From: a virus
Length of the DNA: 64,000 nt
IMG/VR virus record: IMGVR_UViG_3300017917_003388
Location: 96,001-160,000 of that record
Direction: 5' to 3' (one strand)
This document shows positions 6,405 through 61,587 of the stretch, one piece after another; the first letter of the stretch is position 1, and each line of letters opens with the position of its first letter. The notes under the pieces are model-generated. The model saw only the letters and a list, made by a program, of their open reading frames with translations, was not told where the DNA came from and did no database searches. The translations under genes and the position numbers were made by a program.

Positions 6405-8057
6405 TTATAGAGTATTTAAACCACTAACATAAATTTTTCCATAAAATTCTGGTCTTAACATTTTCTTAGCATAACGAGTCATCAGACCTTTACGTGGAGT
6501 AAATGTATCTGGATCATATACTAAAGGAGTCATGATAAGTGGAACATATGGAGCAAACACAGCACCTGATTCAAGGAATTGTTTTCCACGGAATCCCATT
6601 AATATAACATTTTCAGTCATATATGGATTTTTATAAACTGTGTAACGGTTATTGATAGCTCCTACTTTTTGAACACCCATCGCAAACTCAGCATTTGCAG
6701 CATCCCCATTTGTATTTGCAGCAAATCCAGGAATAGATTCTAATACTGTTGCTACTGTTGGAGAACATACTAAGAAGTTAGCACCACCACGTAAAGTTAA
6801 TTGGTGAATCTTATTAGATACTTTCTGCATTTTAGTACCAAGAGTTTGGAACCATTGTCCTTGTGAATTGTAGAAACCTAAACTAGCTGTGAAATCAGTA
6901 CCACCGGCATTTAATGTAGTATTGTTAACTACTGACCAGTATTCTGTAGCAGCTGCTGCATCTTCAATTAACATGTCAAGAACTTCAAGATCAATTTCCA
7001 TTGAAATATATTCACTCATAATATTTGTCAATTCTTGTTCTGCATCAATATTTTGATATGCATTTAAGTCTTGAGCAAATTCAGGAGTCCATACTGCTTT
7101 TAATTTTTTAGTTTTAGCAGTAATAGCTTGAGATTGCATTTTGATATTAATTTCAGGAATTGAAATTGAAGTAGCACTTGCAGCGTTTGGAACTGAGAAT
7201 GAAGGTGCACTTGTAGCTTCAAAATCACCACGATTATTATCAGCTGTAATTTTATTATATTCTACTAACCATGATCCTGAAGCTGCTACTTCAGCTGATG
7301 ATGCAGTAACATAGAATGTAATAGTTCCAGATGTATAATTGTATGAGTTAAATGCTGATAAGTTATCAGCTACAGCTACTGAACCTGAAGAAATGATGAA
7401 TGCTCTAACACCATCAGGATCAAATGCAGTTAATGATGATGTAGAAACAGTAATTGCTTTTACTTCATTTCTTGCTACAGATGCTGATAGATCTGAATCA
7501 AATCCTAAGTTAGCCCAAGATGCTGATGCGTGTGTACCAGCTACAGATGCTGAGAATTGGTTAGTTGAGTAAGCAAATCTTCCAGGTCCATATAAACCAC
7601 CAGTTGTTCCTGTTGTTTGGTATGGGAATCTTCCACTAGCATCACGAGAACCATATAATGAAGTTCCGCTAGTAAATGGATTTTTAGTATTTCCATATTG
7701 GAAATCTAAGAAGAATACTAGTCCTGAAGGTAAATTCATTGGTTGAACGCTAACAAATTCTTTTGCAGCTATTGAACCAAATACTTTACGTACTAAAGGA
7801 AGAGCGATTCCTGCCCAGTTTTCAGATTGACCTACAGTAAATGTACCTGCGCTAGTTCCAGCACCTGTTGAGTTTGCTTCTATAACTAATTGTTTAGCTT
7901 GGTTTTCAAGAATAAGAGCCATATTATTTCTCTCAACGTCTGAACCTAGCTTTTCAAGTAAACCAGTTTTAGCCCACTTTGTTGCTAATCTAGAGGCATC
8001 ACTCTGAAGTGATTTCCAGGGATTAGCAGATTCTAATAATGATTGAATTGTATCCAT
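6405..8057 (-). CDS. Major capsid protein (T4 gp23-like)
   Basis: LPLVRKVF, VSVQPMNLPSGLVF, ITAKTKKLKAVWTPEFAQDLNAY, EYISMEIDLE, FAPYVPL and FTPRKGLMTRYA motifs. Confidence 0.95.
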   Translation of the reverse strand: MDTIQSLLESANPWKSLQSDASRLATKWAKTGLLEKLGSDVERNNMALILENQAKQLVIEANSTGAGTSAGTFTVGQSENWAGIALPLVRKVFGSIAAKEFVSVQPMNLPSGLVFFLDFQYGNTKNPFTSGTSLYGSRDASGRFPYQTTGTTGGLYGPGRFAYSTNQFSASVAGTHASASWANLGFDSDLSASVARNEVKAITVSTSSLTAFDPDGVRAFIISSGSVAVADNLSAFNSYNYTSGTITFYVTASSAEVAASGSWLVEYNKITADNNRGDFEATSAPSFSVPNAASATSISIPEINIKMQSQAITAKTKKLKAVWTPEFAQDLNAYQNIDAEQELTNIMSEYISMEIDLEVLDMLIEDAAAATEYWSVVNNTTLNAGGTDFTASLGFYNSQGQWFQTLGTKMQKVSNKIHQLTLRGGANFLVCSPTVATVLESIPGFAANTNGDAANAEFAMGVQKVGAINNRYTVYKNPYMTENVILMGFRGKQFLESGAVFAPYVPLIMTPLVYDPDTFTPRKGLMTRYAKKMLRPEFYGKIYVSGLNTL

Positions 8058-13131: not shown

Positions 13132-14988
13132 TTAATTTCGCAATTGAGATTCATCTAATAATGATTCTTTAGATTTATCAATATCAAATACCAATTTTTT
13201 TTTAATTTCATTGATGAAATCTTTATTTTTTAAATAAGTATTTTCAGATATGCTAACCATATTTGGTTGATCATCTATCTTCATAGATTTCACACCCAAT
13301 CTATCTTTTCCAAATGCATTATCTTGCTTATTTATGTTGGTTACTTTCTCTATTGGTCTTCCTAATTCTATACCATCTTCATATCCTACAGGTATATTAT
13401 TAGGATTAGACATTAATCTTCCCTTACCATATAGTGCTGCTAAATCATGTGGAGTACCATATGATTTTCCTGTTTCTAAAGGATCATTTCCTTCTTCTGT
13501 AACTTGAGCTAATCTGAATTTACGTTTTGCATCTTGAAGTATTAGATCTCTATATTCATCGAATTGATCTTCACTAAAATGAAATATATGATGATATATC
13601 CAATCAGTTGGTAATAATTGAGATTCTATAATTGATTTGGCTAAGTCTACTTTTTCTTTCATTAAAGCAACACGTTCTTGATCATATATGATAGATGGAG
13701 TTGTTAATGATAAATCAAAATTAGTTAATGTTTCTCCTCTATATCCCTGAGAATATAAATGTACTAATGCTATTTTATATAATTCTGAAAGAACTATTCT
13801 TTGTATGCGATCTATAGTACGAGCAAATCTAATATCTTCAGCAGCCAGTGTTGCTTTTCCTGTTAAGTCTTTTTCATAACCCATAAATGCTTTGGGTACT
13901 TTAAGAGCTGCAAATAATTTTTCTCTTAAATATATTACATCTTCTATTCCATTATATTCTAATCCTTTAGTAGTATCAATTCTTGTAGTTGAATCATTTC
14001 CTCTAACTGGAATATAGAAGTCTTCTAACATGTTTTGCATGTTGTATTTTAAATTATATTCTCCTGTTCTTTCATCTCTAAATGGAGTTTTCTTCATCGT
14101 AGAAATTGTTTTTTGCATGAATGCTTCAACTTCATTAGGAGCAATATTACCTACATTTATATAAAAAATTCGTTTTTCAGGAGCACGTGATATTCTATGT
14201 AATAACATAGCATCTTCCATTAATACATATTGTTTATATAATTTACGAGCTGGTTCTATATATGAACGCCCATATGGTAAATAATTAACATCAGTTAATA
14301 ATCTAAAATGAGCCATCTCATAATTTTCAAAATATATTCCTATAGAATCAGAATTTAAAGTATTAGATACAGGATACATCCCTCCAGATGATGAATTACC
14401 ATCAGGTGAGTACATGAATCTTACAGATGATGGGTTATCTTTATCATATCCTTCTTGACGATATATATGATATGCTGTATATGGTAATACATTATATACT
14501 CCTAATTTATCTGCTATTTCTAGTTTAAGGAAAAAATCACCATATTTATTCATTTGTCTAATCCATGACCATAAATTAAATTCAATATTTAATACATCAT
14601 AGAATAAATTATATAATATCTTTTGTATATCTTCATCTGAAGAACGAATTTGGAGTACTTCACCCATTTCATTTTTCAATGTACATTCATCTGATATAAT
14701 ATCTAAAGCTGAAGCAATTATTGCATCAGTATCCATCATATCATAATCTGAATATAAGAATGGTCTTAAATATTGGTAATTTATATTAAGTTGTTGACCC
14801 CATAATGAAGTAGCATTAGAATAAACTCCATTATATTTATTCATTATTGAGTTAGTTTCTAATCCACTTTGTTGTATAGTATTTATATCTATAATTTTAA
14901 TTTGGTTACCATTTTCATTTCTGATCATAATATCAGTAGAAAATAACCTTCTTAGTCTACCAAATAAATTATTATTTTCATTTGCCAT
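13132..14988 (-). CDS. Portal protein (T4 gp20-like)
   Basis: MEDAMLLHRISRAPEKRIFYINVGN, MLEDFYIPVRG, IEDVIYLREKLFAALKVP and EDIRFARTIDRIQ motifs. Confidence 0.95.
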   Translation of the reverse strand: MANENNNLFGRLRRLFSTDIMIRNENGNQIKIIDINTIQQSGLETNSIMNKYNGVYSNATSLWGQQLNINYQYLRPFLYSDYDMMDTDAIIASALDIISDECTLKNEMGEVLQIRSSDEDIQKILYNLFYDVLNIEFNLWSWIRQMNKYGDFFLKLEIADKLGVYNVLPYTAYHIYRQEGYDKDNPSSVRFMYSPDGNSSSGGMYPVSNTLNSDSIGIYFENYEMAHFRLLTDVNYLPYGRSYIEPARKLYKQYVLMEDAMLLHRISRAPEKRIFYINVGNIAPNEVEAFMQKTISTMKKTPFRDERTGEYNLKYNMQNMLEDFYIPVRGNDSTTRIDTTKGLEYNGIEDVIYLREKLFAALKVPKAFMGYEKDLTGKATLAAEDIRFARTIDRIQRIVLSELYKIALVHLYSQGYRGETLTNFDLSLTTPSIIYDQERVALMKEKVDLAKSIIESQLLPTDWIYHHIFHFSEDQFDEYRDLILQDAKRKFRLAQVTEEGNDPLETGKSYGTPHDLAALYGKGRLMSNPNNIPVGYEDGIELGRPIEKVTNINKQDNAFGKDRLGVKSMKIDDQPNMVSISENTYLKNKDFINEIKKKLVFDIDKSKESLLDESQLRN

Positions 14989-53047: not shown

Positions 53048-53842
53048 TTATTTATCTGATTTAAAAAAATTGTTTATCACACCTTCTAAACCTGGTGTTG
53101 GTGTTATATTAGATAAAGCTTTGACTTTAATTGATGGGGATTTTTCTTTTGATTTATCTACTGATTTAACACTAGGTTTATCTTCTTTAAATTTTGGCAA
53201 CCATTCTTTTTCAAATTCAATACGTGATGCCATTAAATCTGCTTGGTGTAATATATATGGTAAACAAGTTCTAGGTTTTTGTTCAGGTAAATATGGTGAT
53301 AAGTATTTTTTATTTCCTTCATCATATAAACCATCATGTGTTTGTATAGCTACCATTTCATTGAAAGTATAAGGAACACCATTTGATTGAAGTATAAATA
53401 GTGATCTATCTGGCACTGAAGCAAATGGTATTTTATTATTGAAGGTGTAATCTTCACCTAATTTTTCTTTTCTCCATTGATCAGTTTGGGGAATATATGA
53501 TTCATTTTCTTCATCTCCTATTTTCCCTAAATCATGATTTAAAGCTGAAAATATTAGTTCTTCTCTAGTAAATGAAGTCATATTTGCTCCTTCTTCTTCC
53601 CAAATTGATGCTATTTTTAATGAACATCTTATTACTCTAAGTATATGATCTACATATCCTCCTGGGAATGCATTATGGTATTCTTTTTTATAAGATGCTG
53701 GCATCATTATTATTCTATCTGAATAATTATTATATAATTCTAATAATTTTTCTTTCCTAGGAGAAGAAAATTCATTATGAATGATATCTATTAAATCATT
53801 CCAATTTTTTTCAATTTGTTCAGCTGTTAATTTATTTGTCAT
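53048..53842 (-). CDS. HD-domain phosphohydrolase
   Basis: PAS..YHNAFPGGYVDH, HDLGKIG, HDG and HQAD motifs. Confidence 0.85.
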   Translation of the reverse strand: MTNKLTAEQIEKNWNDLIDIIHNEFSSPRKEKLLELYNNYSDRIIMMPASYKKEYHNAFPGGYVDHILRVIRCSLKIASIWEEEGANMTSFTREELIFSALNHDLGKIGDEENESYIPQTDQWRKEKLGEDYTFNNKIPFASVPDRSLFILQSNGVPYTFNEMVAIQTHDGLYDEGNKKYLSPYLPEQKPRTCLPYILHQADLMASRIEFEKEWLPKFKEDKPSVKSVDKSKEKSPSIKVKALSNITPTPGLEGVINNFFKSDK

Positions 53843-55347: not shown

Positions 55348-55528
55348 ATTTTAAAAATATTAAAAAAATATTAAATAAATTTTTTAAAAACTTAAATTAT
55401 ATATTTTAATAAAGTCTATGTTAAAAGATTTAAAGTTAATATAAATTTTTATTTTAATTAAAATATTAAAAATAAAAAAAGCCTCATATTTTATTATAAA
55501 TATAAGGCTTCTAATTGTATTATACTAA

Positions 55529-56047
55529 TTAAAATATTAAATATTGTTTCCAATCTTCTTTATTTTTATATACTCTACTTATGAAATAGAAAGGATTAGG
55601 TCTAAATGGTTTAATATTTAATTTCATACCTGCTTGTTCTGGTGTTTTGTCACCTTTCTTTAAATTACATGGAAAACAACATGTTACTAGATTTTCCCAT
55701 GTATTTAATCCTCCTTTAGATCTAGGATCTATGTGGTCTAAAGTTAGATTTTTAGTTGATCCACAATAAGCACATTTATTATCGTCTCGTTTAAATATAT
55801 TTTCTCTTGAAAGTACAATTTTTCTATGAGGAACATAAACATATTTAGTTAAACGAATAACTGAAGGTTTATGGTATTTGTTGATACTAGTATCTAAAGT
55901 TATTCCTGTATCTTCTATTATTTCTGCTTTACCTTTCCAAACTAATTTAAAAGCTTGTTTGAAAGTAGTAACATTTATTGGTAGAAAATCAGCATTTAAA
56001 ACTAATATCATTGAGTTTTTTTTATTATAACTCTTTAAATTTTTCAT
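55529..56047 (-). CDS. HNH endonuclease (McrA-like)
   Basis: LVLNADF.P, SRENIFKRD..CAYCG, LTLDHI.PRSKGG..WENLVTCC..CN.KK motifs. Confidence 0.9.
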   Translation of the reverse strand: MKNLKSYNKKNSMILVLNADFLPINVTTFKQAFKLVWKGKAEIIEDTGITLDTSINKYHKPSVIRLTKYVYVPHRKIVLSRENIFKRDDNKCAYCGSTKNLTLDHIDPRSKGGLNTWENLVTCCFPCNLKKGDKTPEQAGMKLNIKPFRPNPFYFISRVYKNKEDWKQYLIF

Positions 56048-56090
56048 AATTTCATATTTATATTAAAATATATTTATTATAATTATTTAG

Positions 56091-56163
56091 TACCCAATGT
56101 AGGATTCGAACCTACAAAAACTTGTTCCTAAGACAAGTGTGTCTTCCTTTCCACCAATTGGGT
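56091..56163 (-). tRNA. tRNA-Leu(TAG), short variable loop
   Basis: Acceptor ACCCAAT/ATTGGGT; anticodon arm CTTGT-CTTAGGA-ACAAG; T loop TTCGAAT. Confidence 0.85.
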
Positions 56164-56168
56164 ATTAG

Positions 56169-56240
56169 TACACCGTATAGGACTCGAACCTATATTAAAA
56201 GTTCCGTAGACTTCCGTTCTTCCAATTGAACTAACAGTGC
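56169..56240 (-). tRNA. tRNA-Arg(ACG)
   Basis: Anticodon arm GAAGT-CTACGGA-ACTTT; full cloverleaf. Confidence 0.9.
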
Positions 56241-56245
56241 ATGTG

Positions 56246-56321
56246 GGTATTATGTGGGATTCGAACCCACGACCTCTAGTGCCACAAACTAGCGCTCTTA
56301 TCCATCTGAGCTAATAACACC
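56246..56321 (-). tRNA. tRNA-His(GTG)
   Basis: Anticodon arm CTAGT-TTGTGGC-ACTAG; encoded G-1 and C73. Confidence 0.92.
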
Positions 56322-56326
56322 ATGTG

Positions 56327-56399
56327 TTCTCTTTTGAGGATTCGAACCTACAATTACCTGAGCCAAAATCAAGTGTCCTGCCAATTAGACGAAAAGAGA
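56327..56399 (-). tRNA. tRNA-Gln(TTG)
   Basis: Anticodon arm CTTGA-TTTTGGC-TCAGG; T1-A72; bulged T stem. Confidence 0.85.
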
Positions 56400-56405
56400 G
56401 TATAG

Positions 56406-56479
56406 AGGTAAAGGTAAGATTCGAACTTACGTAATTTTGTTTTGCAAACAAATGCCTAAACCACTCAAGCCACTTTACC
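56406..56479 (-). tRNA. tRNA-Cys(GCA)
   Basis: Anticodon arm TTTGT-TTGCAAA-ACAAA; U73. Confidence 0.9.
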
Positions 56480-56483
56480 ATTG

Positions 56484-56557
56484 AGCTTCATATCGGGATC
56501 GAACCAATTCTATTTCTCATTACAAGTGAGATGCACCACCATTTATGCGTATGAAGC
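56484..56557 (-). tRNA. tRNA-Thr(TGT), atypical A8
   Basis: Anticodon arm TCTCA-CTTGTAA-TGAGA; acceptor GCTTCAT/ATGAAGC. Confidence 0.85.
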
Positions 56558-56562
56558 TTATG

Positions 56563-56638
56563 CGGCTTATACGGGATTTGAACCCGTGATCTTCTGCGTG
56601 ACAGGCAGACGGGGACGACCTGACTCCCCTAATAAGCC
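56563..56638 (-). tRNA. tRNA-Asp(GTC)
   Basis: Anticodon arm TCTGC-CTGTCAC-GCAGA; G73. Confidence 0.92.
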
Positions 56639-56643
56639 AATTG

Positions 56644-56717
56644 AGCAAGTAGACGGGATCGAACCGACTCTATTCCTGATTGGAAGTCAGGTGCACCACC
56701 ATTTATGCGTTACTTGC
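56644..56717 (-). tRNA. tRNA-Gly(TCC), atypical A8
   Basis: Anticodon arm CCTGA-CTTCCAA-TCAGG; U73. Confidence 0.85.
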
Positions 56718-56725
56718 TTTTTTAG

Positions 56726-56798
56726 TACCCCCTGTAGGAATCGAACCTACGACATCTTGTATGTAAAACAAGCACTCTTCCAGCTGAGCTAAAGGGGC
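56726..56798 (-). tRNA. tRNA-Val(TAC)
   Basis: Anticodon arm CTTGT-TTTACAT-ACAAG. Confidence 0.9.
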
Positions 56799-56803
56799 AT
56801 AAG

Positions 56804-56879
56804 TAAGGTAAGTGGGATTTGAACCCACATGCTCTTCATCCCAAATGAAGCGAGATAAGCCTGATTCCTCTATTACCTT
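56804..56879 (-). tRNA. tRNA-Pro(TGG)
   Basis: Anticodon arm CTTCA-TTTGGGA-TGAAG. Confidence 0.9.
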
Positions 56880-56885
56880 ATAATG

Positions 56886-56958
56886 TGGATCTCCTCGGAA
56901 TCGAACCGAGATTTCTTGTTCTTCAGACAAGCACATTGACCAACTCTGTCAAAGATCC
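56886..56958 (-). tRNA. tRNA-Phe(GAA)
   Basis: Anticodon arm CTTGT-CTGAAGA-ACAAG. Confidence 0.9.
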
Positions 56959-56964
56959 ATATAG

Positions 56965-57051
56965 TGGAAGTGGAGGGATTCGAACCCACAAGTTAACCCC
57001 AAAGGGACTAGTTTTACAGACTAGCGAACACACCAATTGTTCAACACTTCC
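56965..57051 (-). tRNA. tRNA-Tyr(GTA)
   Basis: Anticodon arm CTAGT-CTGTAAA-ACTAG; long variable arm. Confidence 0.9.
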
Positions 57052-57058
57052 ATTTTTG

Positions 57059-57129
57059 CGGTTCCCAAAGGAATCGAACCTTTGTATAAAGATTAACAGT
57101 CTTTTGTTCTACCATTGAACTAGGGAACC
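57059..57129 (-). tRNA. tRNA-Asn(GTT)
   Basis: Anticodon arm AAAGA-CTGTTAA-TCTTT; G73. Confidence 0.9.
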
Positions 57130-57573
57130 ATTATTTCTTATCTTTTCATGTTCTTCTCTATGACAATTAGAACATAATAAATCGCATTTATCTACTTCTA
57201 TTTTCATTTTCTCTAAAGAATATGAATTCGAAGATATTGAAAAATCTTTTTGTTTTGGATCTTGATGATGAAATTCTAAAGCAGATAAACACTTATTATA
57301 CCCACATTTAACACATTGGTTTCCTTTATATTCAAGTAATTTAATTTTAGTTCTTCTTTTCCAATTAATTACATTATTCACATTTTGTTTTTTTCTTTCT
57401 TGTTTAGATAATGGTATTCGTTTTTCTTTTTTTTCTTTTTTTACTAACTTTAAATTATGTTTATTTATATAATACCCAACTGTTCCTTTTTGAATAGATA
57501 ATAAATTACATATATCTTTAATTTTAATATTTTGTTTACGTAAATTTATTATTTGTTCTTCTATATTTTTCAT
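57109..57573 (-). CDS. HNH homing endonuclease inserted in the tRNA array
   Basis: N-terminal HTH-like segment; KGNQCVKCGY..C..ALEFHH.DP..KC.LLCSNCHREEH; the 3' end overlaps tRNA-Asn. Confidence 0.85.
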   Translation of the reverse strand: MKNIEEQIINLRKQNIKIKDICNLLSIQKGTVGYYINKHNLKLVKKEKKEKRIPLSKQERKKQNVNNVINWKRRTKIKLLEYKGNQCVKCGYNKCLSALEFHHQDPKQKDFSISSNSYSLEKMKIEVDKCDLLCSNCHREEHEKIRNNGSLVQW

Positions 57574-57642
57574 TTTATTATAAATATATTAGAACAATTT
57601 TAAATTCGATTACTCCTTTTATTTCATCATTTCAAAGATCTG

Positions 57643-57717
57643 TGATCCTGGAGGGACTCGAACCCACGTTTCCTACATTAAAAGTGTAGTGCCTACAACC
57701 AACTCGGCCACAGAATC
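57643..57717 (-). tRNA. tRNA-Lys(TTT)
   Basis: Anticodon arm CTACA-CTTTTAA-TGTAG. Confidence 0.9.
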
Positions 57718-57723
57718 ATTATG

Positions 57724-57797
57724 TAGTCAAAGTAGGACTTGAACCTACGACCTCTTGCTTATCAGACAAGCGCTCTAACCAACTGAGCTATATGACT
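57724..57797 (-). tRNA. tRNA-Ile(GAT)
   Basis: Anticodon arm CTTGT-CTGATAA-GCAAG. Confidence 0.92.
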
Positions 57798-57845
57798 ATG
57801 TATGGGTTTTATTTTATGTAGAAACCCAAACTCGTAAACTACATT

Positions 57846-57918
57846 TGGTGGAGCATGTGGGAATCGAACCCAAATAAATTGTTTGCAAAACAATCCGCCT
57901 GCCTTCGGCATCACCCCC
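57846..57918 (-). tRNA. tRNA-Ala(TGC), irregular acceptor/T stems, encoded CCA
   Basis: Anticodon arm ATTGT-TTTGCAA-ACAAT; G3-U70 pair present. Confidence 0.75.
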
Positions 57919-57924
57919 ATATTG

Positions 57925-58009
57925 CGGAGAGTAAAGGATTCGAACCTTTGGACCAAATTAACGATCACAGTTTAGCAAACTGCTGCAATAACCACTCTGC
58001 CAACTCTCC
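57925..58009 (-). tRNA. tRNA-Ser(GCT)
   Basis: Anticodon arm GCAGT-TTGCTAA-ACTGT; long variable arm; G73. Confidence 0.9.
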
Positions 58010-58015
58010 ATTTTG

Positions 58016-58102
58016 CGGAAGCGAAGGGAATCGAACCCCCAAGTCAGGTTTCCCCGACCAACTGTTTTCAAGACAGCCCCCTCGTCCATTCGGACCACTT
58101 CC
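58016..58102 (-). tRNA. tRNA-Ser(TGA)
   Basis: Anticodon arm GCTGT-CTTGAAA-ACAGT; long variable arm. Confidence 0.9.
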
Positions 58103-58109
58103 ATTTTAG

Positions 58110-58179
58110 CACGCCGTGTAGGAATTGAACCCACCCGCAAGAGTTTTGGAGGCTCTGCCGACCCATGTCTGAACGACGC
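58110..58179 (-). tRNA. tRNA-Trp(CCA), shortened D arm
   Basis: Anticodon arm AGAGC-CTCCAAA-ACTCT; acceptor GCGTCGT/ACGGCGT. Confidence 0.75.
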
Positions 58180-58210
58180 GTATTAAAAAATTTAACAATA
58201 AATTAAGAAC

Positions 58211-58243
58211 AAAAAAACCCGAACTTTTTTAGATTCGGGTTTA
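58211..58243 (-). terminator. Intrinsic terminator (putative attenuator) upstream of the 19-tRNA array
   Basis: Minus strand AAACCCGAAT-CTAAAAAA-GTTCGGGTTT-TTTT. Confidence 0.85.
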
Positions 58244-58272
58244 GTATAAAAATATAAATAAATTATATAATT

Positions 58273-58386
58273 TTAATAAACCGAATCAGGTGGATGAATA
58301 AACCACGTCCCATTATCGACTTTAATCGACGGTTGATAAGTCGCAAGACTATCAAAATTAAAGGTATATAGTTTATAGTTTTTCAT
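58273..58386 (-). CDS. 37-aa leader peptide of a putative tRNA-operon attenuator
   Basis: MKNYKLYTFNFDSLATYQPSIKVDNGTWFIHPPDSVY*; lies between a promoter and the terminator; the last codons GATTCGGTTTA are complementary to the terminator 5' arm. Confidence 0.7.
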   Translation of the reverse strand: MKNYKLYTFNFDSLATYQPSIKVDNGTWFIHPPDSVY

Positions 58387-58399
58387 CTGTTTTTCTTTT

Positions 58400-58434
58400 A
58401 TTATAAATATATGAAAAGGATTTTGAAATCCAAA
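58400..58434 (-). promoter_or_regulatory. Promoter for the leader and tRNA array
   Basis: TTTGGATTTC-N13-TATATTTATAAT, the same two-box layout as other promoters in the window. Confidence 0.7.
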
Positions 58435-58453
58435 TTCTTTTTCTTTTTTTTAG

Positions 58454-58527
58454 TTGCGGGGGAAGGATTCGAACCTTCGACCTTTAGGTTATGAGCCTAA
58501 CGAGCTGACCAACTGCTCTACCCCACA
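58454..58527 (-). tRNA. tRNA-Met(CAT), initiator-like body
   Basis: Acceptor TGTGGGG/CCCCGCA, D stem GAGC/GCTC, anticodon arm TTAGG-CTCATAA-CCTAA. Confidence 0.88.
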
Positions 58528-58575
58528 TTGTTATTACTTATATTATTATATATTGATACATATTGTAAAAATTTT

Positions 58576-58600
58576 AAAAATAACCGACCTTGCTCGGTTA
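58576..58600 (-). terminator. Terminator after the TROVE gene
   Basis: Minus strand TAACCGAG-CAAG-GTCGGTTA-TTTTT. Confidence 0.65.
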
Positions 58601-58617
58601 ACACAATTGGTTTCTTG

Positions 58618-60225
58618 TTAAATCTCTATACTTTCAATTTCTTGAATAAGAGCTTTATAACCTTTACAATTAGCTTCAATTAGGTTAAAGATTTTATCTG
58701 ACCAACCCGCAATCTGTAATACATTAAGTGATTTATCAAAAACTGATTTTCCACTAGTTTGTTTTATATCAACACAAATTGTATTACAATGTGGGTTTAC
58801 TTTTTTAAATTCTTTAAACAATGTTTGGAACGAACCTAATCCAGCATCAGATGAATGATCCCATCCTCCACTACCTCCAGAACCTATAACCATGTCTGAA
58901 AATATTACTAGATTATCAACTCTGGTTTTTTCTTTAATACATCTATCTAAAAATATATAAAGTCCATTTTCAGTTCCTCCACCACATTTCACTCCTTCAT
59001 TAAATGAATTTTTGTTAAATTCAAGTAAACCTTTTTTTCTATCAATTGGTATTTGGATTAATTTATCACCAAATAAACCCATATATACATTTCTTTGAGA
59101 CCATGTTAACATGGAACCAAATAAATTACCAATCATAGCTGTTGTGGTTTTAGAAAAAGCAGATACTTTAGAACTTCCACCACCATCTCCTCTAACAGAA
59201 CCAGAATGGTCAATTAGTACAGCTGTTGTACCTTCAAGAGCTGGGATATTTTCAACAGAAAATTCTAATGCTTGTTCAAGAGCTGCTAATACTTTATCAA
59301 CTAATGTATTTGTAGATGTAGATTCAAAAGTAATAGTTTTAGATCTAGATGAACCAGTATGTTTTAGTTTTTCGATTTCTTCATATGCTGTAGCAAATCT
59401 AAATGGTAATAATCTAGAATTGAGAACTTTATCTTTATTAGTCAAATGTGAAATAGCTTTATCAACTTGATCAGGAGCGGTTTCAATTATATTTCTAAGA
59501 TTTCTCAATAGATTCATAATTGGTGCATCACCATCCAAAACTTCAGTAATAGCTGCTGCTTTTACTTCGGTTACATCTAAATTTTGTGATTTAGCAACTT
59601 GACCTGCTTTGGATAATTGCTTTTCCATAATTTTGGTAGAATATAATCCTTCCAATGATTCACCAGCAATTAATCTTTTAAAAGCTTCAAAGTTTTGTTT
59701 GGTAGGTTTAGGATGTACTAAGTTTACCAAATCAACAAGTGAAATCTCTTTTTTAGACATTTTATATTTGTCAATAAGATAAGGATCCATAGATTCTAGT
59801 TTTTTCTTAAATCCACGTCTCATAGCATTAGCTATTTTTTTATTACCTTTTGAAAAATAATAAGCTAAAATCTCTGACATATCATCAGGACGAACTGATA
59901 CTTTCTTGTAAAAACGAGAAGCATATTCTTTTCCTGACAAACGTGGTGCTAATTCACCGGCTAAAAGATGAGTTACAGATCTCATATTAGCATCATTTCT
60001 CAAATATATAGCTAACTTAGCTACAAAGTCTTCACTTACCTTATTTGCAGCATTTTTAATACGATTAACCACTTCGTTTTCTGATTCATAATATGAACCT
60101 TGTAAGAATGTAGTTAAACATGTTGCTACAAGTTCTTCTTTTTCACTTAATTGATAAGCTTTTTCCCCCATTTCATTTACTGTTGTTGGAACAGTAGGAG
60201 TTTTAGATTTATTGTACTTTGACAT
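58618..60225 (-). CDS. rsr: Ro60/TROVE-domain RNA-binding protein with a C-terminal vWA domain (Rsr orthologue)
   Basis: VNEMGEKAY, FVAKLAIYLR...MRS, RPDDMSEILAY, Y.IDKY, DLVNLVHPKP, LLRNLRNI, SRLLPFRF..AY; MIDAS DHSGS...FSDM; GWSD. Confidence 0.93.
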   Translation of the reverse strand: MSKYNKSKTPTVPTTVNEMGEKAYQLSEKEELVATCLTTFLQGSYYESENEVVNRIKNAANKVSEDFVAKLAIYLRNDANMRSVTHLLAGELAPRLSGKEYASRFYKKVSVRPDDMSEILAYYFSKGNKKIANAMRRGFKKKLESMDPYLIDKYKMSKKEISLVDLVNLVHPKPTKQNFEAFKRLIAGESLEGLYSTKIMEKQLSKAGQVAKSQNLDVTEVKAAAITEVLDGDAPIMNLLRNLRNIIETAPDQVDKAISHLTNKDKVLNSRLLPFRFATAYEEIEKLKHTGSSRSKTITFESTSTNTLVDKVLAALEQALEFSVENIPALEGTTAVLIDHSGSVRGDGGGSSKVSAFSKTTTAMIGNLFGSMLTWSQRNVYMGLFGDKLIQIPIDRKKGLLEFNKNSFNEGVKCGGGTENGLYIFLDRCIKEKTRVDNLVIFSDMVIGSGGSGGWDHSSDAGLGSFQTLFKEFKKVNPHCNTICVDIKQTSGKSVFDKSLNVLQIAGWSDKIFNLIEANCKGYKALIQEIESIEI

Positions 60226-60264
60226 ATAACTTGGTTTTTAAAATTAATTAAACAAATTTAGAAT

Positions 60265-60310
60265 AAAAAAGGGAGAAACATTAATTATTTATTTAACTAA
60301 TATTTCTCCC
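60265..60310 (-). terminator. Intrinsic terminator between the ncRNA array and the Ro60 start codon
   Basis: Minus strand GGGAGAAATATTAGTT-AAAT-AAATAATTAATGTTTCTCCC-TTTTTT. Confidence 0.75.
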
Positions 60311-60323
60311 AATTTAAAATTAA

Positions 60324-60466
60324 TTGATAGAGAATATTATAAAAGAGGTTTGTGTTTGACTATTTGGAAGATAGTTGCTTTTACCATTTAGCTAATTTTT
60401 CCAATGCGGAAAAATATTGGATTCGAACCAATAATACGAAGTAACTCTTTTAATTACTACTATCAA
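60324..60466 (-). ncRNA. Y-like RNA 1: scaffold plus circularly permuted tRNA-Gly(TCC) mimic
   Basis: Scaffold GTAGTAAT-TAAAAGAG-TTACTTCG ... CTCTTTTA; insert order is T arm, loop-closed acceptor, D arm, anticodon arm ACTAT-CTTCCAA-ATAGT. Confidence 0.75.
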
Positions 60467-60475
60467 ATATTTTTA

Positions 60476-60562
60476 AACAAGAGAAAAAATAGAATTGAGT
60501 GTTTGTTTGATTAATTGTCCAAAAATTAGTATACGAAGTAACTCAACTCATTACTACTTGTT
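60476..60562 (-). ncRNA. Y-like RNA 2: scaffold plus a lone anticodon-like stem-loop (TGG)
   Basis: GTAGTAAT-GAGTTGAG-TTACTTCG ... CTCAATTC (compensatory stem); insert TAATT-TTTGGAC-AATTA. Confidence 0.7.
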
Positions 60563-60573
60563 AAAATCTTAAA

Positions 60574-60704
60574 AAAAATAAGAGAAAAGATAAAAGAGTA
60601 TATTTGAATTATCGACAGGGATCGAACCTGCAACTCATTTCTGAAAAGGAAATTGTGCTACCAATTGCACTACGAAGTAACTCTTTTGATTACTACTTAT
60701 TTTT
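60574..60704 (-). ncRNA. Y-like RNA 3: scaffold replaces the acceptor stem of a tRNA mimic (TTT loop)
   Basis: Insert TA-GTGC-AATTGGTA-GCAC-A-ATTTC-CTTTTCA-GAAAT-GAGTT-GCAGG-TTCGATC-CCTGT. Confidence 0.75.
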
Positions 60705-60728
60705 ATTTTTATTAATTGAATATATAAA

Positions 60729-60794
60729 TAAAGAACGTTTTTTTCTTAATTTCTTGATATTGTAAATATAAGATTAAAGATTTTGAAATCCTAA
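60729..60794 (-). promoter_or_regulatory. Promoter plus boxA-like element driving Y-like RNAs 3, 2 and 1
   Basis: TTAGGATTTC..TATATTTACAA followed by CGTTCTTTA; near-duplicate of 61186-61252. Confidence 0.65.
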
Positions 60795-60832
60795 TTTTAA
60801 TATCTTTTTTTAAAAAAAAATTTATTAACTAG

Positions 60833-60907
60833 TACTCCCGACGGGGCTCGAACCCGCAATTTCTACCTTGAAAGGGTAGCGGCTTAAACCAATTTGCCCA
60901 CAGGAGC
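60833..60907 (-). tRNA. tRNA-Glu(TTC)
   Basis: Anticodon arm CTACC-CTTTCAA-GGTAG. Confidence 0.9.
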
Positions 60908-60910
60908 GTA

Positions 60911-61078
60911 AAATTTAAAGAGAAACAAATAAAAGAGTATTTTTCTAAAAACGCGTGTCTACCAATTCCACCACCCCATAATTTGTTATCAATTAAGTTA
61001 TGGGGGAAGGATTCGAACCTCCAATGTACGTGCTCCTAATGCAAGCGAAGTAACTCTTTTGATTACTACTTTAAATTT
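60911..61078 (-). ncRNA. Y-like RNA 4: scaffold plus circularly permuted tRNA-Leu(TAG) mimic
   Basis: Insert order: anticodon arm CTTGC-ATTAGGA-GCACG, T arm GGAGG-TTCGAAT-CCTTC, loop-closed acceptor CCCCATAA/TTATGGGG, Leu-type D arm GTGGAATTGGTAGACAC. Confidence 0.75.
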
Positions 61079-61082
61079 AAAG

Positions 61083-61158
61083 TTGCGGGGGTGAGACTCG
61101 AACTCACGTTATTTGGCTTATGAGACCAAGCTGGCAACCACCTCCAGACTACCCCACA
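61083..61158 (-). tRNA. tRNA with CAT anticodon (Met, or lysidine-modified Ile2)
   Basis: Anticodon arm TTGGT-CTCATAA-GCCAA; acceptor TGTGGGG/CCCCGCA. Confidence 0.82.
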
Positions 61159-61185
61159 ATTTTTATTTTAATAAATATTGTAATA

Positions 61186-61252
61186 TTTTTAAAGAACGTA
61201 TTTTCTTTTTTTCTTTATTGTAAATATAGGATTAAAGATCTTGTAATCCTAA
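61186..61252 (-). promoter_or_regulatory. Promoter plus boxA-like element for the tRNA(CAT)/Y4/tRNA-Glu unit
   Basis: TAGGATTACA..TATATTTACAA followed by CGTTCTTTAAAAA. Confidence 0.65.
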
Positions 61253-61587
61253 TTTAAATTTAACTTTCTTTTATAATATACATATATATTTTGTCGATAT
61301 GAAGAATTTTATTTTTTAGTATTGGAGCGAGATACATATGTTATATCAAAGTTGGTATTTTGAAAAAACATATTAATAATTTGAGATATATAATTATATA
61401 TTGGTCGGGTTGAGAGGGGTGTATAAGATCTGAAAATATATCCAAGTCCCTGTCCCTGCCCCCAGCCCGCCGTATGGACCCCAGCATGCGTGGTAGCATA
61501 TACCCATACCCATACGCACGTATGCATATATGCACCAGAAGAGATATGTCTTGTTTTTTACTTCATTCCTTAAAATTTACATTCGAC

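What the first reader, a model, noticed from the sequence alone, without database searches (positions are those of the whole stretch)
56091..61252. Integrated translation-rescue island: complete 20-amino-acid tRNA set, attenuator and Ro60/Y-like RNAs
Seen: 22 tRNAs covering all 20 amino acids, almost exactly one each (two Ser, two CAT), are interleaved with the Ro60 gene and the tRNA mimics. The anticodons shown on the mimics (TCC, TGG, TTT, TAG) all also occur among the real tRNAs. Inference: the one-per-amino-acid design and conditional expression fit replacement of a destroyed host tRNA pool better than codon-bias tuning. The island could combine decoy, sensor and replacement functions. No RtcB ligase, a frequent Rsr neighbour in bacteria, is visible in this window.
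Basis: partly seen in the sequence, partly recalled or inferred. Interest (0 to 1): 0.8.

Follow-up and report, generated by a model that had tools for sequence, protein, structure and literature searches.

The report
Phage tRNA operon with inserted Ro60 cassette
A large, very AT-rich phage of Bacteroidota carries a full set of its own tRNA genes behind a small conserved switch, with a separately mobile Ro60 protein gene and four tRNA-mimicking partner RNAs inserted among them. The parts are real, but relatives carry them in different combinations, so they are separable modules and not one proven rescue machine.

Summary
Window 56090-61158 (minus strand) carries 22 tRNA genes for all 20 amino acids (21 by ARAGORN, plus an atypical tRNA-Trp). 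It also holds a 535-aa Ro60/TROVE gene, four Y-like RNAs on one shared scaffold, and a leader ORF with a terminator.

Three corrections:
- The phage is a complete 174.7-kb, 27% GC myovirus related to Flavobacterium phage immuto, not a crAss-like phage.
- "One tRNA per amino acid" is a window-edge effect. Four more tRNAs lie 5 kb further on (Leu-TAA, Arg-TCT, Ile-TAT, Met). The total of 26 gives one per codon box, matching the phage's A/U-ending codons.
- The whole genome lacks RtcB, RNA ligases and a CCA-adding enzyme, and only tRNA-Ala clearly encodes CCA. The set therefore depends on host maturation.

The closest relatives keep the same tRNA order and a homologous leader/terminator but have no Ro60 and no Y RNAs. 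The Ro60+Y cassette recurs in unrelated phages, in about half of the lineages beside tRNA arrays. The parts therefore assort independently, although they often sit next to each other.

The sensor reading gains some support. Decoy and integrated rescue remain untested. This scan has reported similar Ro60/tRNA regions on other DNA.

The parts
56090..57129 (-). Compact run of 13 tRNA genes in transcription order: Asn, Tyr, Phe, Pro-TGG, Val, Gly-TCC, Asp, Thr, Cys, Gln, His, Arg-ACG, Leu-TAG. Spacers are 4-8 nt.
   Evidence: ARAGORN and Rfam tRNA at 45-74 bits. The same order is found in relatives L171 and L180.
57109..57573 (-). HNH endonuclease ORF (154 aa) inserted between tRNA-Lys and tRNA-Asn. 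Its 3' end overlaps tRNA-Asn by 21 nt.
   Evidence: PHROG HNH endonuclease, E 3.5e-29. A homologue sits at a different place in the array of relative L171. Relative L180 has Lys and Asn 10 nt apart.
57642..58179 (-). Six tRNA genes in transcription order: Trp-CCA (58109-58179, atypical D arm), Ser-TGA, Ser-GCT, Ala, Ile-GAT, Lys-TTT.
   Evidence: Trp is called by ARAGORN at a 95% threshold and folds as a cloverleaf.
58215..58427 (-). Candidate leader-peptide attenuator. Promoter-like site 58427-58400; 37-codon ORF 58386-58276 with stop at 58275-58273; antiterminator arm GAUUCGGUUUA at 58287-58277; intrinsic terminator 58242-58215. tRNA-Trp follows 35 nt later.
   Evidence: Terminator and promoter scans. 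Alternative folds. Arm-to-arm duplex -11.4 kcal/mol, reached by 45 of 1000 shuffles. A homologous ORF, terminator and antiterminator with compensatory changes occur in L171, L180 and L182.
58453..58527 (-). tRNA-Met(CAT) with an initiator-like acceptor stem (UGUGGGG...CCCCGCAA). A promoter-like site lies at 58569-58542.
   Evidence: ARAGORN and Rfam at 70 bits; sequence; promoter scan. The initiator assignment is my reading of the sequence and was not tested.
58581..58600 (-). Intrinsic terminator directly after the Ro60 stop codon.
58618..60225 (-). Ro60 (TROVE + vWA) protein gene, 535 aa.
   Evidence: Pfam TROVE. PHROG RNA-binding protein, E 6e-35. PDB 9KOP/9L5Y phage phiLo Ro60, E 3e-17. 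1448 homologues at E<=1e-10. The conserved vWA motif D-H-S-G-S-V-R-G was among the patterns derived from the alignment.
60271..60310 (-). Strong terminator hairpin between the last Y-like RNA and the Ro60 start codon 45 nt downstream.
   Evidence: Fold -21.8 kcal/mol, z -6.1. The same layout (Y RNAs, terminator, Ro60) is seen in gut phage locus L106.
60326..60463 (-). Y-like RNA D. Scaffold with a permuted tRNA-like cargo: T arm, closed acceptor stem, D arm, then an anticodon arm with loop CUUCCAA (UCC).
   Evidence: Motif. Rfam tRNA 32.6 bits at 60331-60401. Fold z -3.2 with the 5' and 3' ends paired. Read from the sequence.
60478..60559 (-). Y-like RNA C. Scaffold with a minimal cargo: one A-U hairpin with loop UUUGGAC (UGG).
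   Evidence: Motif and fold. Its second closing helix has a different sequence that still pairs over 9 bp (GAGUUGAGU/ACUCAAUUC).
60579..60698 (-). Y-like RNA B. Scaffold with a non-permuted tRNA body that lacks an acceptor stem; anticodon loop CUUUUCA (UUU, Lys-like).
   Evidence: Rfam tRNA 41.2 bits, model positions 5-66 only. ARAGORN calls it tRNA-Lys only at a 90% threshold. Motif.
60758..60801 (-). Copy of a repeated promoter-like motif (ATTTCAAAATCTTTAATCTTATATTTACAAT) ahead of Y-like RNAs B to D.
   Evidence: 91% identical copy at 61216-61259. Seven near-identical copies were matched genome-wide, all on the minus strand at genome 156-171 kb and 3.8-6.6 kb; with the variant at window 61216-61259 that makes eight.
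60832..60907 (-). tRNA-Glu(TTC).
60917..61072 (-). Y-like RNA A. Scaffold with a permuted cargo: anticodon arm (loop AUUAGGA, UAG), T arm, closed acceptor stem, then a D arm of tRNA-Leu type (GGUGGAAUUGGUAGACAC).
   Evidence: Motif and sequence. The resemblance of the D arm to bacterial tRNA-Leu rests on my own knowledge.
61082..61158 (-). Second tRNA-Met(CAT), with the same initiator-like acceptor stem and an unusual D arm.
   Evidence: ARAGORN, Rfam 40.4 bits, sequence.
61216..61259 (-). Promoter-like motif copy ahead of tRNA-Met, Y-like RNA A and tRNA-Glu.
55477..56047 (-). Second HNH endonuclease ORF (55529-56047) and a terminator (55512-55477) closing the tRNA run.
   Evidence: Pfam HNH_5, E 5e-15. 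Terminator. Homologue at the same end of the array in L171.

Best explanation
The region holds two evolutionarily separable modules side by side in the phage's promoter-rich accessory region.

Module 1 is the phage's own tRNA operon. There are 22 genes in the window and 26 within 11 kb, one per codon box or half-box. U34 tRNAs serve every four-codon box except Arg. The set can formally read every sense codon the phage uses, and it matches the phage's A/U-ending codons. Most of it (19 tRNAs) lies behind a promoter, a 37-codon leader ORF and a terminator. The terminator's 5' arm can instead pair with the last codons of the ORF. The inferred logic is as follows. A ribosome that reaches the stop codon masks the antiterminator arm, so transcription stops. 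A ribosome that stalls or is absent leaves the arm free, so transcription reads through into the tRNAs. tRNA supply would then rise when translation falters. Maturation depends on the host (RNase P/Z, CCA addition, charging).

Module 2 is a mobile Ro60-Y RNA cassette: promoter, Y-like RNAs, terminator, Ro60, terminator. In this phage it is inserted in the gap between tRNA-Glu and tRNA-Met. By analogy with Deinococcus Rsr and phage phiLo Ro60, the Y-like RNAs bind Ro60 through the stem formed by their ends. They display tRNA-shaped cargo to host tRNA- or RNA-decay factors.

Shown: the genes, their layout, the conservation and the independent assortment. Inferred: the switch logic, Ro60-Y binding and any role in the conflict with the host.
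For: Phage identity and completeness:
- Terminal repeats, 174,694 bp, 27% GC.
- TerL is 58.7% identical to Flavobacterium phage immuto.
- Major head, portal and baseplate families are found.

tRNA set and codon usage:
- TTA is 70% of Leu codons, AGA 65% of Arg and ATA 53% of Ile.
- CGG, the one codon without an obvious reader, is used once in about 41,000 codons.
- Only tRNA-Ala clearly encodes CCA.

Same-lineage relatives:
- L171, L180 and L182 keep the same tRNA order and the leader/terminator, with up to 25 tRNAs. They have no Y motif, and only a 1.1-kb Glu-Met gap where this phage has the cassette.
- The complete relatives G003, G004 and immuto have 6, 15 and 3 tRNAs and no TROVE gene.

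Cassette mobility:
- The Y motif lies on the Ro60 strand, usually 200-500 nt upstream, in about 64 of 80 Ro60 loci from very different phages.
- The closing helices are supported: 44 of 53 distinct units have 7/7 pairs in the second helix, against 8 of 53 with shuffled strands. Eight different helix sequences occur, and the first helix co-varies (GAGUGG/UCCCUC, AAGUGG/UCCCUU, AAGUAG/UCUCUU).

Leader.

Precedents:
- phiLo Ro60 with Y-like RNAs binds host PNPase (PMC12135203).
- Bas63 gp130, a Ro60-like protein directly upstream of tRNA genes, counters the Ppl defence (PMC11482910).
Against: - Adjacency of Ro60 and tRNA genes is more frequent than a random position would give. About 6 of 12 Ro60 lineages have at least 6 tRNAs within 10 kb, and all four cultured phages sampled have tRNAs within about 4 kb. 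A functional link therefore cannot be dismissed.
- Leader support is thin. It rests on two sequence versions from one sub-lineage. The antiterminator duplex is only marginally better than shuffles (45 of 1000). The ORF has no run of regulatory codons. Its G/C-ending codon share is 30% against 12% genome-wide, which could reflect RNA structure and not translation.
- The Y-like RNAs do not match the Rfam YrlA model and lack the published GNCGAA motif, so Ro60 binding is inferred from position and architecture only.
- The host is unknown, so codon mismatch with the host cannot be measured.
Confidence: 0.6

Rival explanations
1. Integrated counter-defence island. The leader senses ribosome stalling caused by host tRNA cleavage and switches on a complete replacement tRNA set. 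The Ro60-held tRNA mimics act as decoys or inhibitors for anticodon nucleases.
For: - A complete set including single-codon amino acids is more than codon tuning would need.
- The conserved leader has off-when-translating logic.
- In the gut clade, the anticodon loops of the Lys-like (CUUUUAA) and Tyr-like (UGUA) cargo are invariant while their stems vary. UUU cargo also recurs in L092, and UGG cargo in L092/L093.
- tRNA-Lys and tRNA-Tyr are the known targets of PARIS and of a retron effector, and phage tRNAs rescue infection (PMC11464382, PMC11555353, PMC10264068).
- Bas63 gp130 counters a defence system (PMC11482910).
Against: - The three parts do not travel together. The array and leader occur without Ro60 and Y RNAs in the closest relatives, and the cassette occurs without an array in the large gut clade.
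- No repair enzymes are encoded.
- This phage's cargo modules are not copies of its own tRNAs with the same anticodons.
- No tRNA-targeting defence is known for the host, which is itself unknown.
- Ppl, the system countered by gp130, is proposed to degrade DNA, not tRNA.
Confidence: 0.15
2. Functional coupling without defence. Ro60 and its Y RNAs act as quality control or a processing aid for the phage's own densely packed tRNA precursors. They bind misfolded or unprocessed tRNA transcripts and pass them to host exonucleases, which would explain why the cassette so often sits inside tRNA arrays.
For: - Recurrent adjacency in unrelated phages.
- Ro60 is known to bind misfolded non-coding RNAs, and Y RNA tethers it to PNPase (PMC4201824, PMC12135203).
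- Several tRNAs here are atypical: Trp has a short D arm, Leu-TAG lacks a long variable arm, and Met2 scores only 40 bits.
Against: - Relatives with the same 25-tRNA array manage without Ro60.
- The gut clade has the cassette but only about 6 tRNA genes, two of which are Y cargo.
Confidence: 0.2
3. Plain codon supply with passengers. The tRNAs only compensate for the phage's extreme AT bias. The small ORF is an ordinary small gene with a leaky terminator. Ro60 and the Y RNAs are unrelated accessory cargo that landed in a recombination-prone region.
For: - Every anticodon is the best reader of an A/U-ending codon.
- Relatives with small sets keep mainly Leu-TAA, Arg-TCT, Ile-TAT and Met.
- HNH endonuclease genes sit at different places in the array in different relatives.
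- The array sits at a syntenic but size-variable site.
Against: - The terminator sits 35 nt before tRNA-Trp, with no promoter-like site in between.
- Both hairpins are kept by compensatory changes, and the ORF is kept open through in-frame indels.
- tRNAs for Trp, Met and Cys are not explained by codon bias.
Confidence: 0.25

Closest known systems
Bacterial Rsr (Ro60) with YrlA/YrlB Y RNAs, including the Salmonella rsr-yrlBA-rtcBA operon and the Deinococcus Rsr-Y RNA-PNPase complex (Chen et al. 2014, PMC4201824; Hughes et al. 2020, PMC7790460)
   Same: - A TROVE/vWA protein is encoded next to several small RNAs.
- The 5' and 3' ends of those RNAs pair.
- The RNA interior mimics tRNA, with T arm, D arm and a closed acceptor stem in units A and D.
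   Different: - No RtcB or RtcA is present.
- There is no match to the Rfam YrlA model and no GNCGAA motif; the conserved element is GURGURA...UACUUCG.
- The cargo is attached in several topologies: direct, two permutations, or hairpin only.
- The cargo keeps full anticodon arms.
Thermus phage phiLo Ro60 with Yrl1/Yrl2 (PMC12135203; PDB 9KOP, 9L5Y)
   Same: - A phage Ro60 with Y-like RNAs encoded just upstream.
- It is the only solved structure matched by sequence (E 3e-17).
   Different: - The match covers only the N-terminal 185 residues.
- The paper's passages found here mention no tRNA array and no tRNA-body cargo in the phiLo RNAs.
E. coli phage Bas63 gp130 (PhageMaP preprint, PMC11482910)
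   Same: - A Ro60-like protein sits directly beside a run of tRNA genes.
- The authors suggest some of those 'tRNAs' are Y RNAs.
- There is experimental evidence for a counter-defence role.
   Different: - It is a different phage lineage and host.
- The defence it counters (Ppl) is proposed to act on DNA.
- No leader switch is described.
Large phage tRNA arrays and the tRNA-depletion hypothesis (mycobacteriophage cluster C1, T5, Sf14; PMC10264068, PMC11464382, PMC11555353, PMC12482277)
   Same: - Many tRNA genes sit in compact same-strand runs with homing endonuclease genes.
- The proposal is that they replace a depleted or cleaved host pool.
   Different: - Here the set is exactly one per codon box with no redundancy apart from Met.
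- It is preceded by a conserved leader/terminator.
Leader-peptide transcription attenuators of bacterial operons (trp, his, pheST)
   Same: - A short translated ORF is followed by an intrinsic terminator.
- A mutually exclusive antiterminator overlaps the end of the ORF.
   Different: - It controls tRNA genes, not biosynthetic or synthetase genes.
- There is no run of codons for one amino acid.
- It has two hairpins, not four segments.
- It occurs in a phage of Bacteroidota.

Membership tests
Ro60 / Rsr (TROVE + vWA) proteins | TROVE domain above the Pfam cut-off | tested here: met
   PF05731, 54.9 bits against a cut-off of 23. The genome-wide search finds only this gene.
Ro60 / Rsr (TROVE + vWA) proteins | C-terminal vWA domain with the metal-site motif DxSxS | tested here: met
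   D339, S341 and S343 are invariant in 15 homologues. D[HD]SGS[VM]RG was a search pattern derived from the alignment. Metal binding itself was not tested.
Ro60 / Rsr (TROVE + vWA) proteins | Ring-shaped HEAT-repeat fold | not tested
   No structure was predicted. Only sequence similarity to 9KOP over residues 18-202 is available.
YrlA-type Y RNAs (Rfam RF02553) | Match to the family covariance model | tested here: not met
   No match at the gathering score. The only sub-threshold hit (21 bits against 69) lies on real tRNAs at 56216-56274.
YrlA-type Y RNAs (Rfam RF02553) | Conserved GNCGAAN0-1G motif on the 5' strand of the Ro60-binding stem (PMC4201824) | tested here: not met
   All four units, and the units in relatives, carry UACUUCG instead.
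YrlA-type Y RNAs (Rfam RF02553) | Encoded next to Ro60, ends paired into a stem, interior resembling tRNA | tested here: met
   - Position.
- Helices with compensatory changes.
- Rfam tRNA hits inside units B and D.
YrlA-type Y RNAs (Rfam RF02553) | Bound by Ro60 | not testable with these tools
   Needs pull-down or gel-shift experiments.
Leader-peptide transcription attenuators | Short ORF, intrinsic terminator and a mutually exclusive antiterminator overlapping the ORF | tested here: met
   Conserved with compensatory changes in L171 and L180. Duplex energy is matched by 45 of 1000 shuffles.
Leader-peptide transcription attenuators | Run of codons for the sensed amino acid | tested here: not met
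   The 37 codons use 17 amino acids with no run. They are enriched in G/C-ending rare codons, 30% against 12% genome-wide.
Leader-peptide transcription attenuators | Read-through responds to translation | not testable with these tools
   Needs a reporter or Term-seq.
RNA-repair operons linked to Rsr (rtcBA) or T4-type Pnk/Rnl repair | RtcB, RNA ligase, polynucleotide kinase or CCA-adding enzyme in the genome | tested here: not met
   - RtcB, PolyA_pol and RNA_ligase: no match, with positive controls ringing.
- RNA_lig_T4_1: no match, but its control was silent too, so this one is inconclusive.
- AAA_33: only a 16-bit P-loop hit.
Phage tRNA arrays with a complete decoding set | tRNAs for all 20 amino acids and for every codon box used | tested here: met
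   26 tRNAs set against codon usage. Completeness assumes four-way reading by U34, which was not tested.

The most novel reading that the evidence does not exclude
The region is a two-layer answer to tRNA-targeting immunity. The leader detects stalled ribosomes and releases a complete, host-independent tRNA set. Ro60 holds uncleavable or sacrificial tRNA look-alikes whose anticodon loops are kept under selection. These would soak up or block anticodon nucleases or other tRNA-recognising effectors.
Probability: 0.13. Interest if true: 0.85.

Novelty: new variant of a known kind. Interest (0 to 1): 0.5.

Why it matters
If the leader works as inferred, it would be a feedback switch in which a virus measures translation and adjusts its own tRNA supply. 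My one literature search listed no paper describing such control of a tRNA operon.

The Ro60 cassette adds a well-defined natural case for asking what phage Ro60 particles do. It has four partner RNAs on one scaffold with different tRNA-shaped cargo, sits inside a tRNA operon, and has close relatives that lack the cassette.

The comparison also corrects annotation. The 'tRNA-Tyr' and 'tRNA-Lys' genes annotated upstream of Ro60 in the GenBank record of gut phage csAssE-Sib lie inside Y-like scaffolds. ARAGORN likewise calls Tyr- and Lys-type tRNAs at that position in related gut-phage contigs.

Tried and rejected
- crAss-like origin. It was suggested by the best Ro60 matches (cr111_1, csAssE-Sib). 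TerL, head, portal and baseplate genes reject it.
- Mimics as copies of the phage's own tRNAs. Alignment scores of the un-permuted cargo to all 26 tRNAs are unremarkable and do not favour the tRNA with the same anticodon.
- Significance of mimic anticodons matching real tRNAs. Rejected as uninformative, because 13 of 16 UNN anticodons are present.
- Leader homologues:
  - An exact 18-mer from the ORF end found nothing in viral contigs.
  - A first tblastn used coordinates off by one base and was meaningless; it was repeated correctly.
  - A 23-base degenerate pattern found three viral contigs and nothing in metagenome contigs.
  - No comparable leader lies upstream of tRNA-Trp in G012.
  - A heuristic scan found no homologous leader in other phages' arrays.
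- Neighbouring ORFs. Pfam and PHROG scans of 15 different neighbouring ORFs gave nothing related to translation or RNA repair.
- Host identification and comparison of host codon usage were not attempted, because no host genome is at hand.

Full report
WHAT THE DNA IS

The window is bases 96001-160000 of a complete 174,694-bp virus record with direct terminal repeats and 27% G+C. All ORFs of 500 aa or more are on the minus strand.

The best Ro60 matches are crAss-like gut phages, but the phage itself is not crAss-like. Its large terminase is 58.7% identical to that of Flavobacterium phage vB_FspM_immuto, a 160-kb myovirus. It also has T4-type head, portal and baseplate-wedge families. Stop-codon use is standard and no suppressor tRNA is present.

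OBSERVATION

ARAGORN finds 21 tRNAs between 56090 and 61158, all on the minus strand, and Rfam agrees. The 22nd is tRNA-Trp(CCA) at 58109-58179. It has a good acceptor stem and T arm but a 3-bp D stem with a 4-nt loop. ARAGORN calls it once the threshold is lowered to 95%.

The 535-aa ORF at 58618-60225 is a Ro60/TROVE protein. Four RNAs upstream of it share the 24-nt motif GTAGTAATnnnnnGAGTTACTTCG, which never appears in shuffles. A 3' partner closes each RNA into a stem. Their interiors differ:
- Unit A: a permuted tRNA-Leu-like body, with loop UAG and a Leu-type D arm.
- Unit B: a direct tRNA body without an acceptor stem, with loop UUU.
- Unit C: a single hairpin, with loop UGG.
- Unit D: a permuted body, with loop UCC.

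These anticodons do occur among the real tRNAs. That was to be expected, since 13 of the 16 possible UNN anticodons are present.

CORRECTIONS

Four more tRNAs lie about 5 kb beyond tRNA-Met2 and 2-3 kb outside the window: Ile-TAT, Arg-TCT, a third Met and Leu-TAA (genome 161975-162961). They read ATA, AGA/AGG and TTA/TTG. Those codons make up 53% of Ile, 69% of Arg and 78% of Leu codons, about 13% of all codons in the phage. The design is therefore one tRNA per codon box, 26 in all, and not one per amino acid.

Every four-codon box except Arg has a U34 tRNA, which suits the phage's NNA/NNU preference. CGG, the one codon without an obvious reader, is used once in about 41,000 codons.

Both in-window CAT tRNAs have the same initiator-like acceptor stem, and the likely elongator Met is one of the four outside. 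This is read from the sequences and is tentative.

Only tRNA-Ala clearly encodes CCA. The genome has no CCA-adding enzyme, RtcB or RNA ligase, and no convincing polynucleotide kinase. The Rnl1 search had a silent control, so that one result is inconclusive. The set is therefore complete for decoding but not self-sufficient.

LAYOUT

Terminator-like hairpins on the minus strand lie at four places:
- 60310-60271, between Y unit D and Ro60.
- 58600-58581, after Ro60.
- 58242-58215, after the small ORF.
- 55512-55477, after the last HNH ORF.

A 31-nt promoter-like motif occurs in eight near-identical copies. All are in genome 156-171 kb plus 3.8-6.6 kb, and two of them sit ahead of Y units and tRNAs in the window. 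The order 'Y RNAs, terminator, Ro60' is the same in distant relatives.

SAME-LINEAGE RELATIVES

Contigs L171 (G002, TerL about 78% identical), L180 and L182 have the same tRNA order. It runs Glu, Met, leader, then Trp, Ser, Ser, Ala, Ile, Lys, Asn, Tyr, Phe, Pro, Val, Gly, Asp, Thr, Cys, Gln, His, Arg and Leu. L180 holds 25 tRNAs in 4.7 kb. The array follows the same structural genes as here.

None of these contigs has the Y motif. The Glu-Met gap is 1.1 kb and holds an HNH gene, where this phage has the 2.3-kb Y+Ro60 cassette.

The complete relatives G003, G004 and immuto have no TROVE gene and only 6, 15 and 3 tRNAs. The small sets keep mostly Leu-TAA, Arg-TCT, Ile-TAT and Met. This points to codon supply as the basic driver in the lineage.

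RO60 RELATIVES

Eighty Ro60 loci from viral contigs fall into 12 clusters at 75% identity. They come from very different phages, including 280-430-kb genomes and the 150-kb gut csAssE group.

The Y motif is on the Ro60 strand, usually 200-500 nt upstream, in about 64 of the 80 loci. In the gut group there are three units:
- a YrlA-like permuted unit;
- a unit with a full tRNA-Tyr(GUA)-like cloverleaf;
- a unit with a full tRNA-Lys(UUU)-like cloverleaf that starts at the last two bases of the motif.

The GenBank record of csAssE-Sib annotates the last two as ordinary tRNAs.

The two closing helices are supported by covariation. In 44 of 53 distinct units the second helix has 7 of 7 pairs, against 8 of 53 with shuffled strands, and eight different helix sequences occur. 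The first helix changes in step.

About 6 of the 12 clusters have at least 6 real tRNAs within 10 kb of Ro60. The 57-member gut cluster has none apart from the cargo.

Four cultured phages from other Ro60 clades were sampled:
- Phage G has Ro60 inside its tRNA/tmRNA array.
- HGTV-1 has RtcB, a tRNA, Ro60, HNH and a nucleotidyltransferase together.
- Satis has two tRNAs within about 2-4 kb.
- phiKT1024 has one tRNA within about 2-4 kb.

The conclusion is that Y RNAs and Ro60 are tightly linked. Ro60 and tRNA arrays are frequent neighbours but separable.

THE LEADER

A promoter-like site (58427-58400) is followed by a 37-codon ORF (58386-58276), a terminator (58242-58215) and, 35 nt later, tRNA-Trp. 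The ORF's last codons, GAUUCGGUUUA, can pair with the terminator's 5' arm, UAAACCCGAAUC. The duplex is -11.4 kcal/mol and is reached by 45 of 1000 shuffles, which on its own is weak.

The comparative evidence is stronger. L171, L180 and L182 have a homologous 39-codon ORF at the same place. It is kept open through in-frame indels and has a conserved core (ATY..SI.VDN.GW.I).

Both hairpins are preserved by paired changes (pairs read by eye):
- Antiterminator: GAUUCGG/CCGAAUC here, GGUUCGG/CCGAACC there.
- Outer part: UUUA/UAAA here, AUUA/UAAU there.

In L180 nothing interrupts the 21 tRNAs behind the terminator. The HNH gene between Lys and Asn in this phage is therefore an intrusion.

There are caveats. 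Only two sequence versions are known. No run of regulatory codons is present. The ORF's 30% G/C-ending codons, against 12% genome-wide, may reflect stems and not decoding.

I put the chance that this is a real terminator/antiterminator switch at about 0.6. The chance that it is driven by translation of the ORF is about 0.45.

INTERPRETATION

The best-supported reading is two modules.

The first is a leader-gated, complete tRNA operon. It is ancestral to this sub-lineage and depends on host maturation.

The second is a mobile Ro60-Y RNA cassette that landed in the Glu-Met gap. Its function here is inferred from precedents:
- Y RNA tethers Ro60 to PNPase (PMC4201824).
- Phage phiLo Ro60 with Y-like RNAs binds and dampens host PNPase (PMC12135203).
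- Bas63 gp130, a Ro60-like protein next to tRNA genes, counters a defence system (PMC11482910).

Replacement of a depleted host tRNA pool is a published hypothesis (PMC10264068, PMC11464382, PMC11555353). It fits the completeness of the set but is not tested here.

One observation keeps the decoy idea alive. In the gut clade the Lys-like and Tyr-like anticodon loops are invariant while their stems vary. UUU and UGG cargo also recur in other lineages and topologies. The cargo in this phage cannot be charged, because it has no free acceptor end. It can therefore only act by being bound.

NOVELTY

Phage tRNA arrays, phage Ro60 with Y RNAs, and their adjacency are all described. What differs here is the exact one-per-box set behind a conserved leader switch. 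The Y scaffold also differs: it fails the YrlA model and motif tests and carries cargo in several topologies.

This scan has reported comparable Ro60/tRNA regions, and 'separable modules' verdicts, on other genomes. I did not use those notes as evidence.

Noticed in passing
L177:9157-9274, L177:14481-14594, L178:267-377 (own genome 169157-169274, 174481-174594, 267-377; minus strand): Three paralogous tRNA-like RNAs of 110-118 nt. They share one acceptor stem (AGUCAGG/CCUGACU), a tRNA-Leu-type D arm and a T arm. A different insert of about 55 nt replaces the anticodon and variable region in each. Rfam tRNA scores 33-44 bits; ARAGORN does not call them.
   Followed up: partly
window 56090-56163 (-): tRNA-Leu(TAG) is only 74 nt and has no long variable arm, unlike the 85-nt Leu(TAA) outside the window and unlike bacterial class II tRNA-Leu.
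   Followed up: no
window 60758-60801 and 61216-61259; own genome 3793, 5859, 6561, 162149, 164164, 171039 (minus strand): A 31-nt promoter-like motif (ATTTCAAAATCTTwAATyTTATATTTACAAT) occurs in eight near-identical copies confined to one part of the genome. It probably marks one temporal class of promoters.
   Followed up: partly
L177:10700-11040 (own genome about 170700-171040, minus strand): One promoter copy is followed by the same 40-nt leader as Y unit B (ATCAAGAAATTAAGAAAAAAACGTTCTTT). About 300 nt without a minus-strand ORF follow, and no Rfam family matched there at gathering score. This may be another non-coding RNA.
   Followed up: no
L002:7666-7738 and 7811-7884 (phage csAssE-Sib, OR575929.1): The genes annotated tRNA-Tyr and tRNA-Lys just upstream of the Ro60 gene lie inside Y-like scaffolds, between the 5' motif and its 3' partner. 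ARAGORN makes the same calls in dozens of related gut-phage contigs.
   Followed up: partly
L004:8210-8345 and L003:1900-2035: Between the Y-like RNAs and Ro60 in the two closest Ro60 relatives lies a conserved structured stretch of about 130 nt ending in a terminator. It has no counterpart in the window. It was not scanned against Rfam.
   Followed up: no
L004:9110-9620 and L003:2277-2785: An HD-motif ORF (GHDLIEDARVTY) sits immediately upstream of Ro60 in these relatives. In the window, a non-homologous weak HD-domain ORF (53048-53842) lies 2 kb beyond the array.
   Followed up: no
L171:14296-14365 and 14716-14785: A perfect 70-bp inverted repeat flanks tRNA-Glu at the very end of contig G002. 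It may be an assembly fold-back and not biology.
   Followed up: no
L174 (Halovirus HGTV-1, NC_021328.1 56081-77586): In this archaeal virus the TROVE gene sits with RtcB, an intron-bearing tRNA-Asp, an HNH endonuclease and a nucleotidyltransferase. That is the repair-enzyme company this phage lacks.
   Followed up: no
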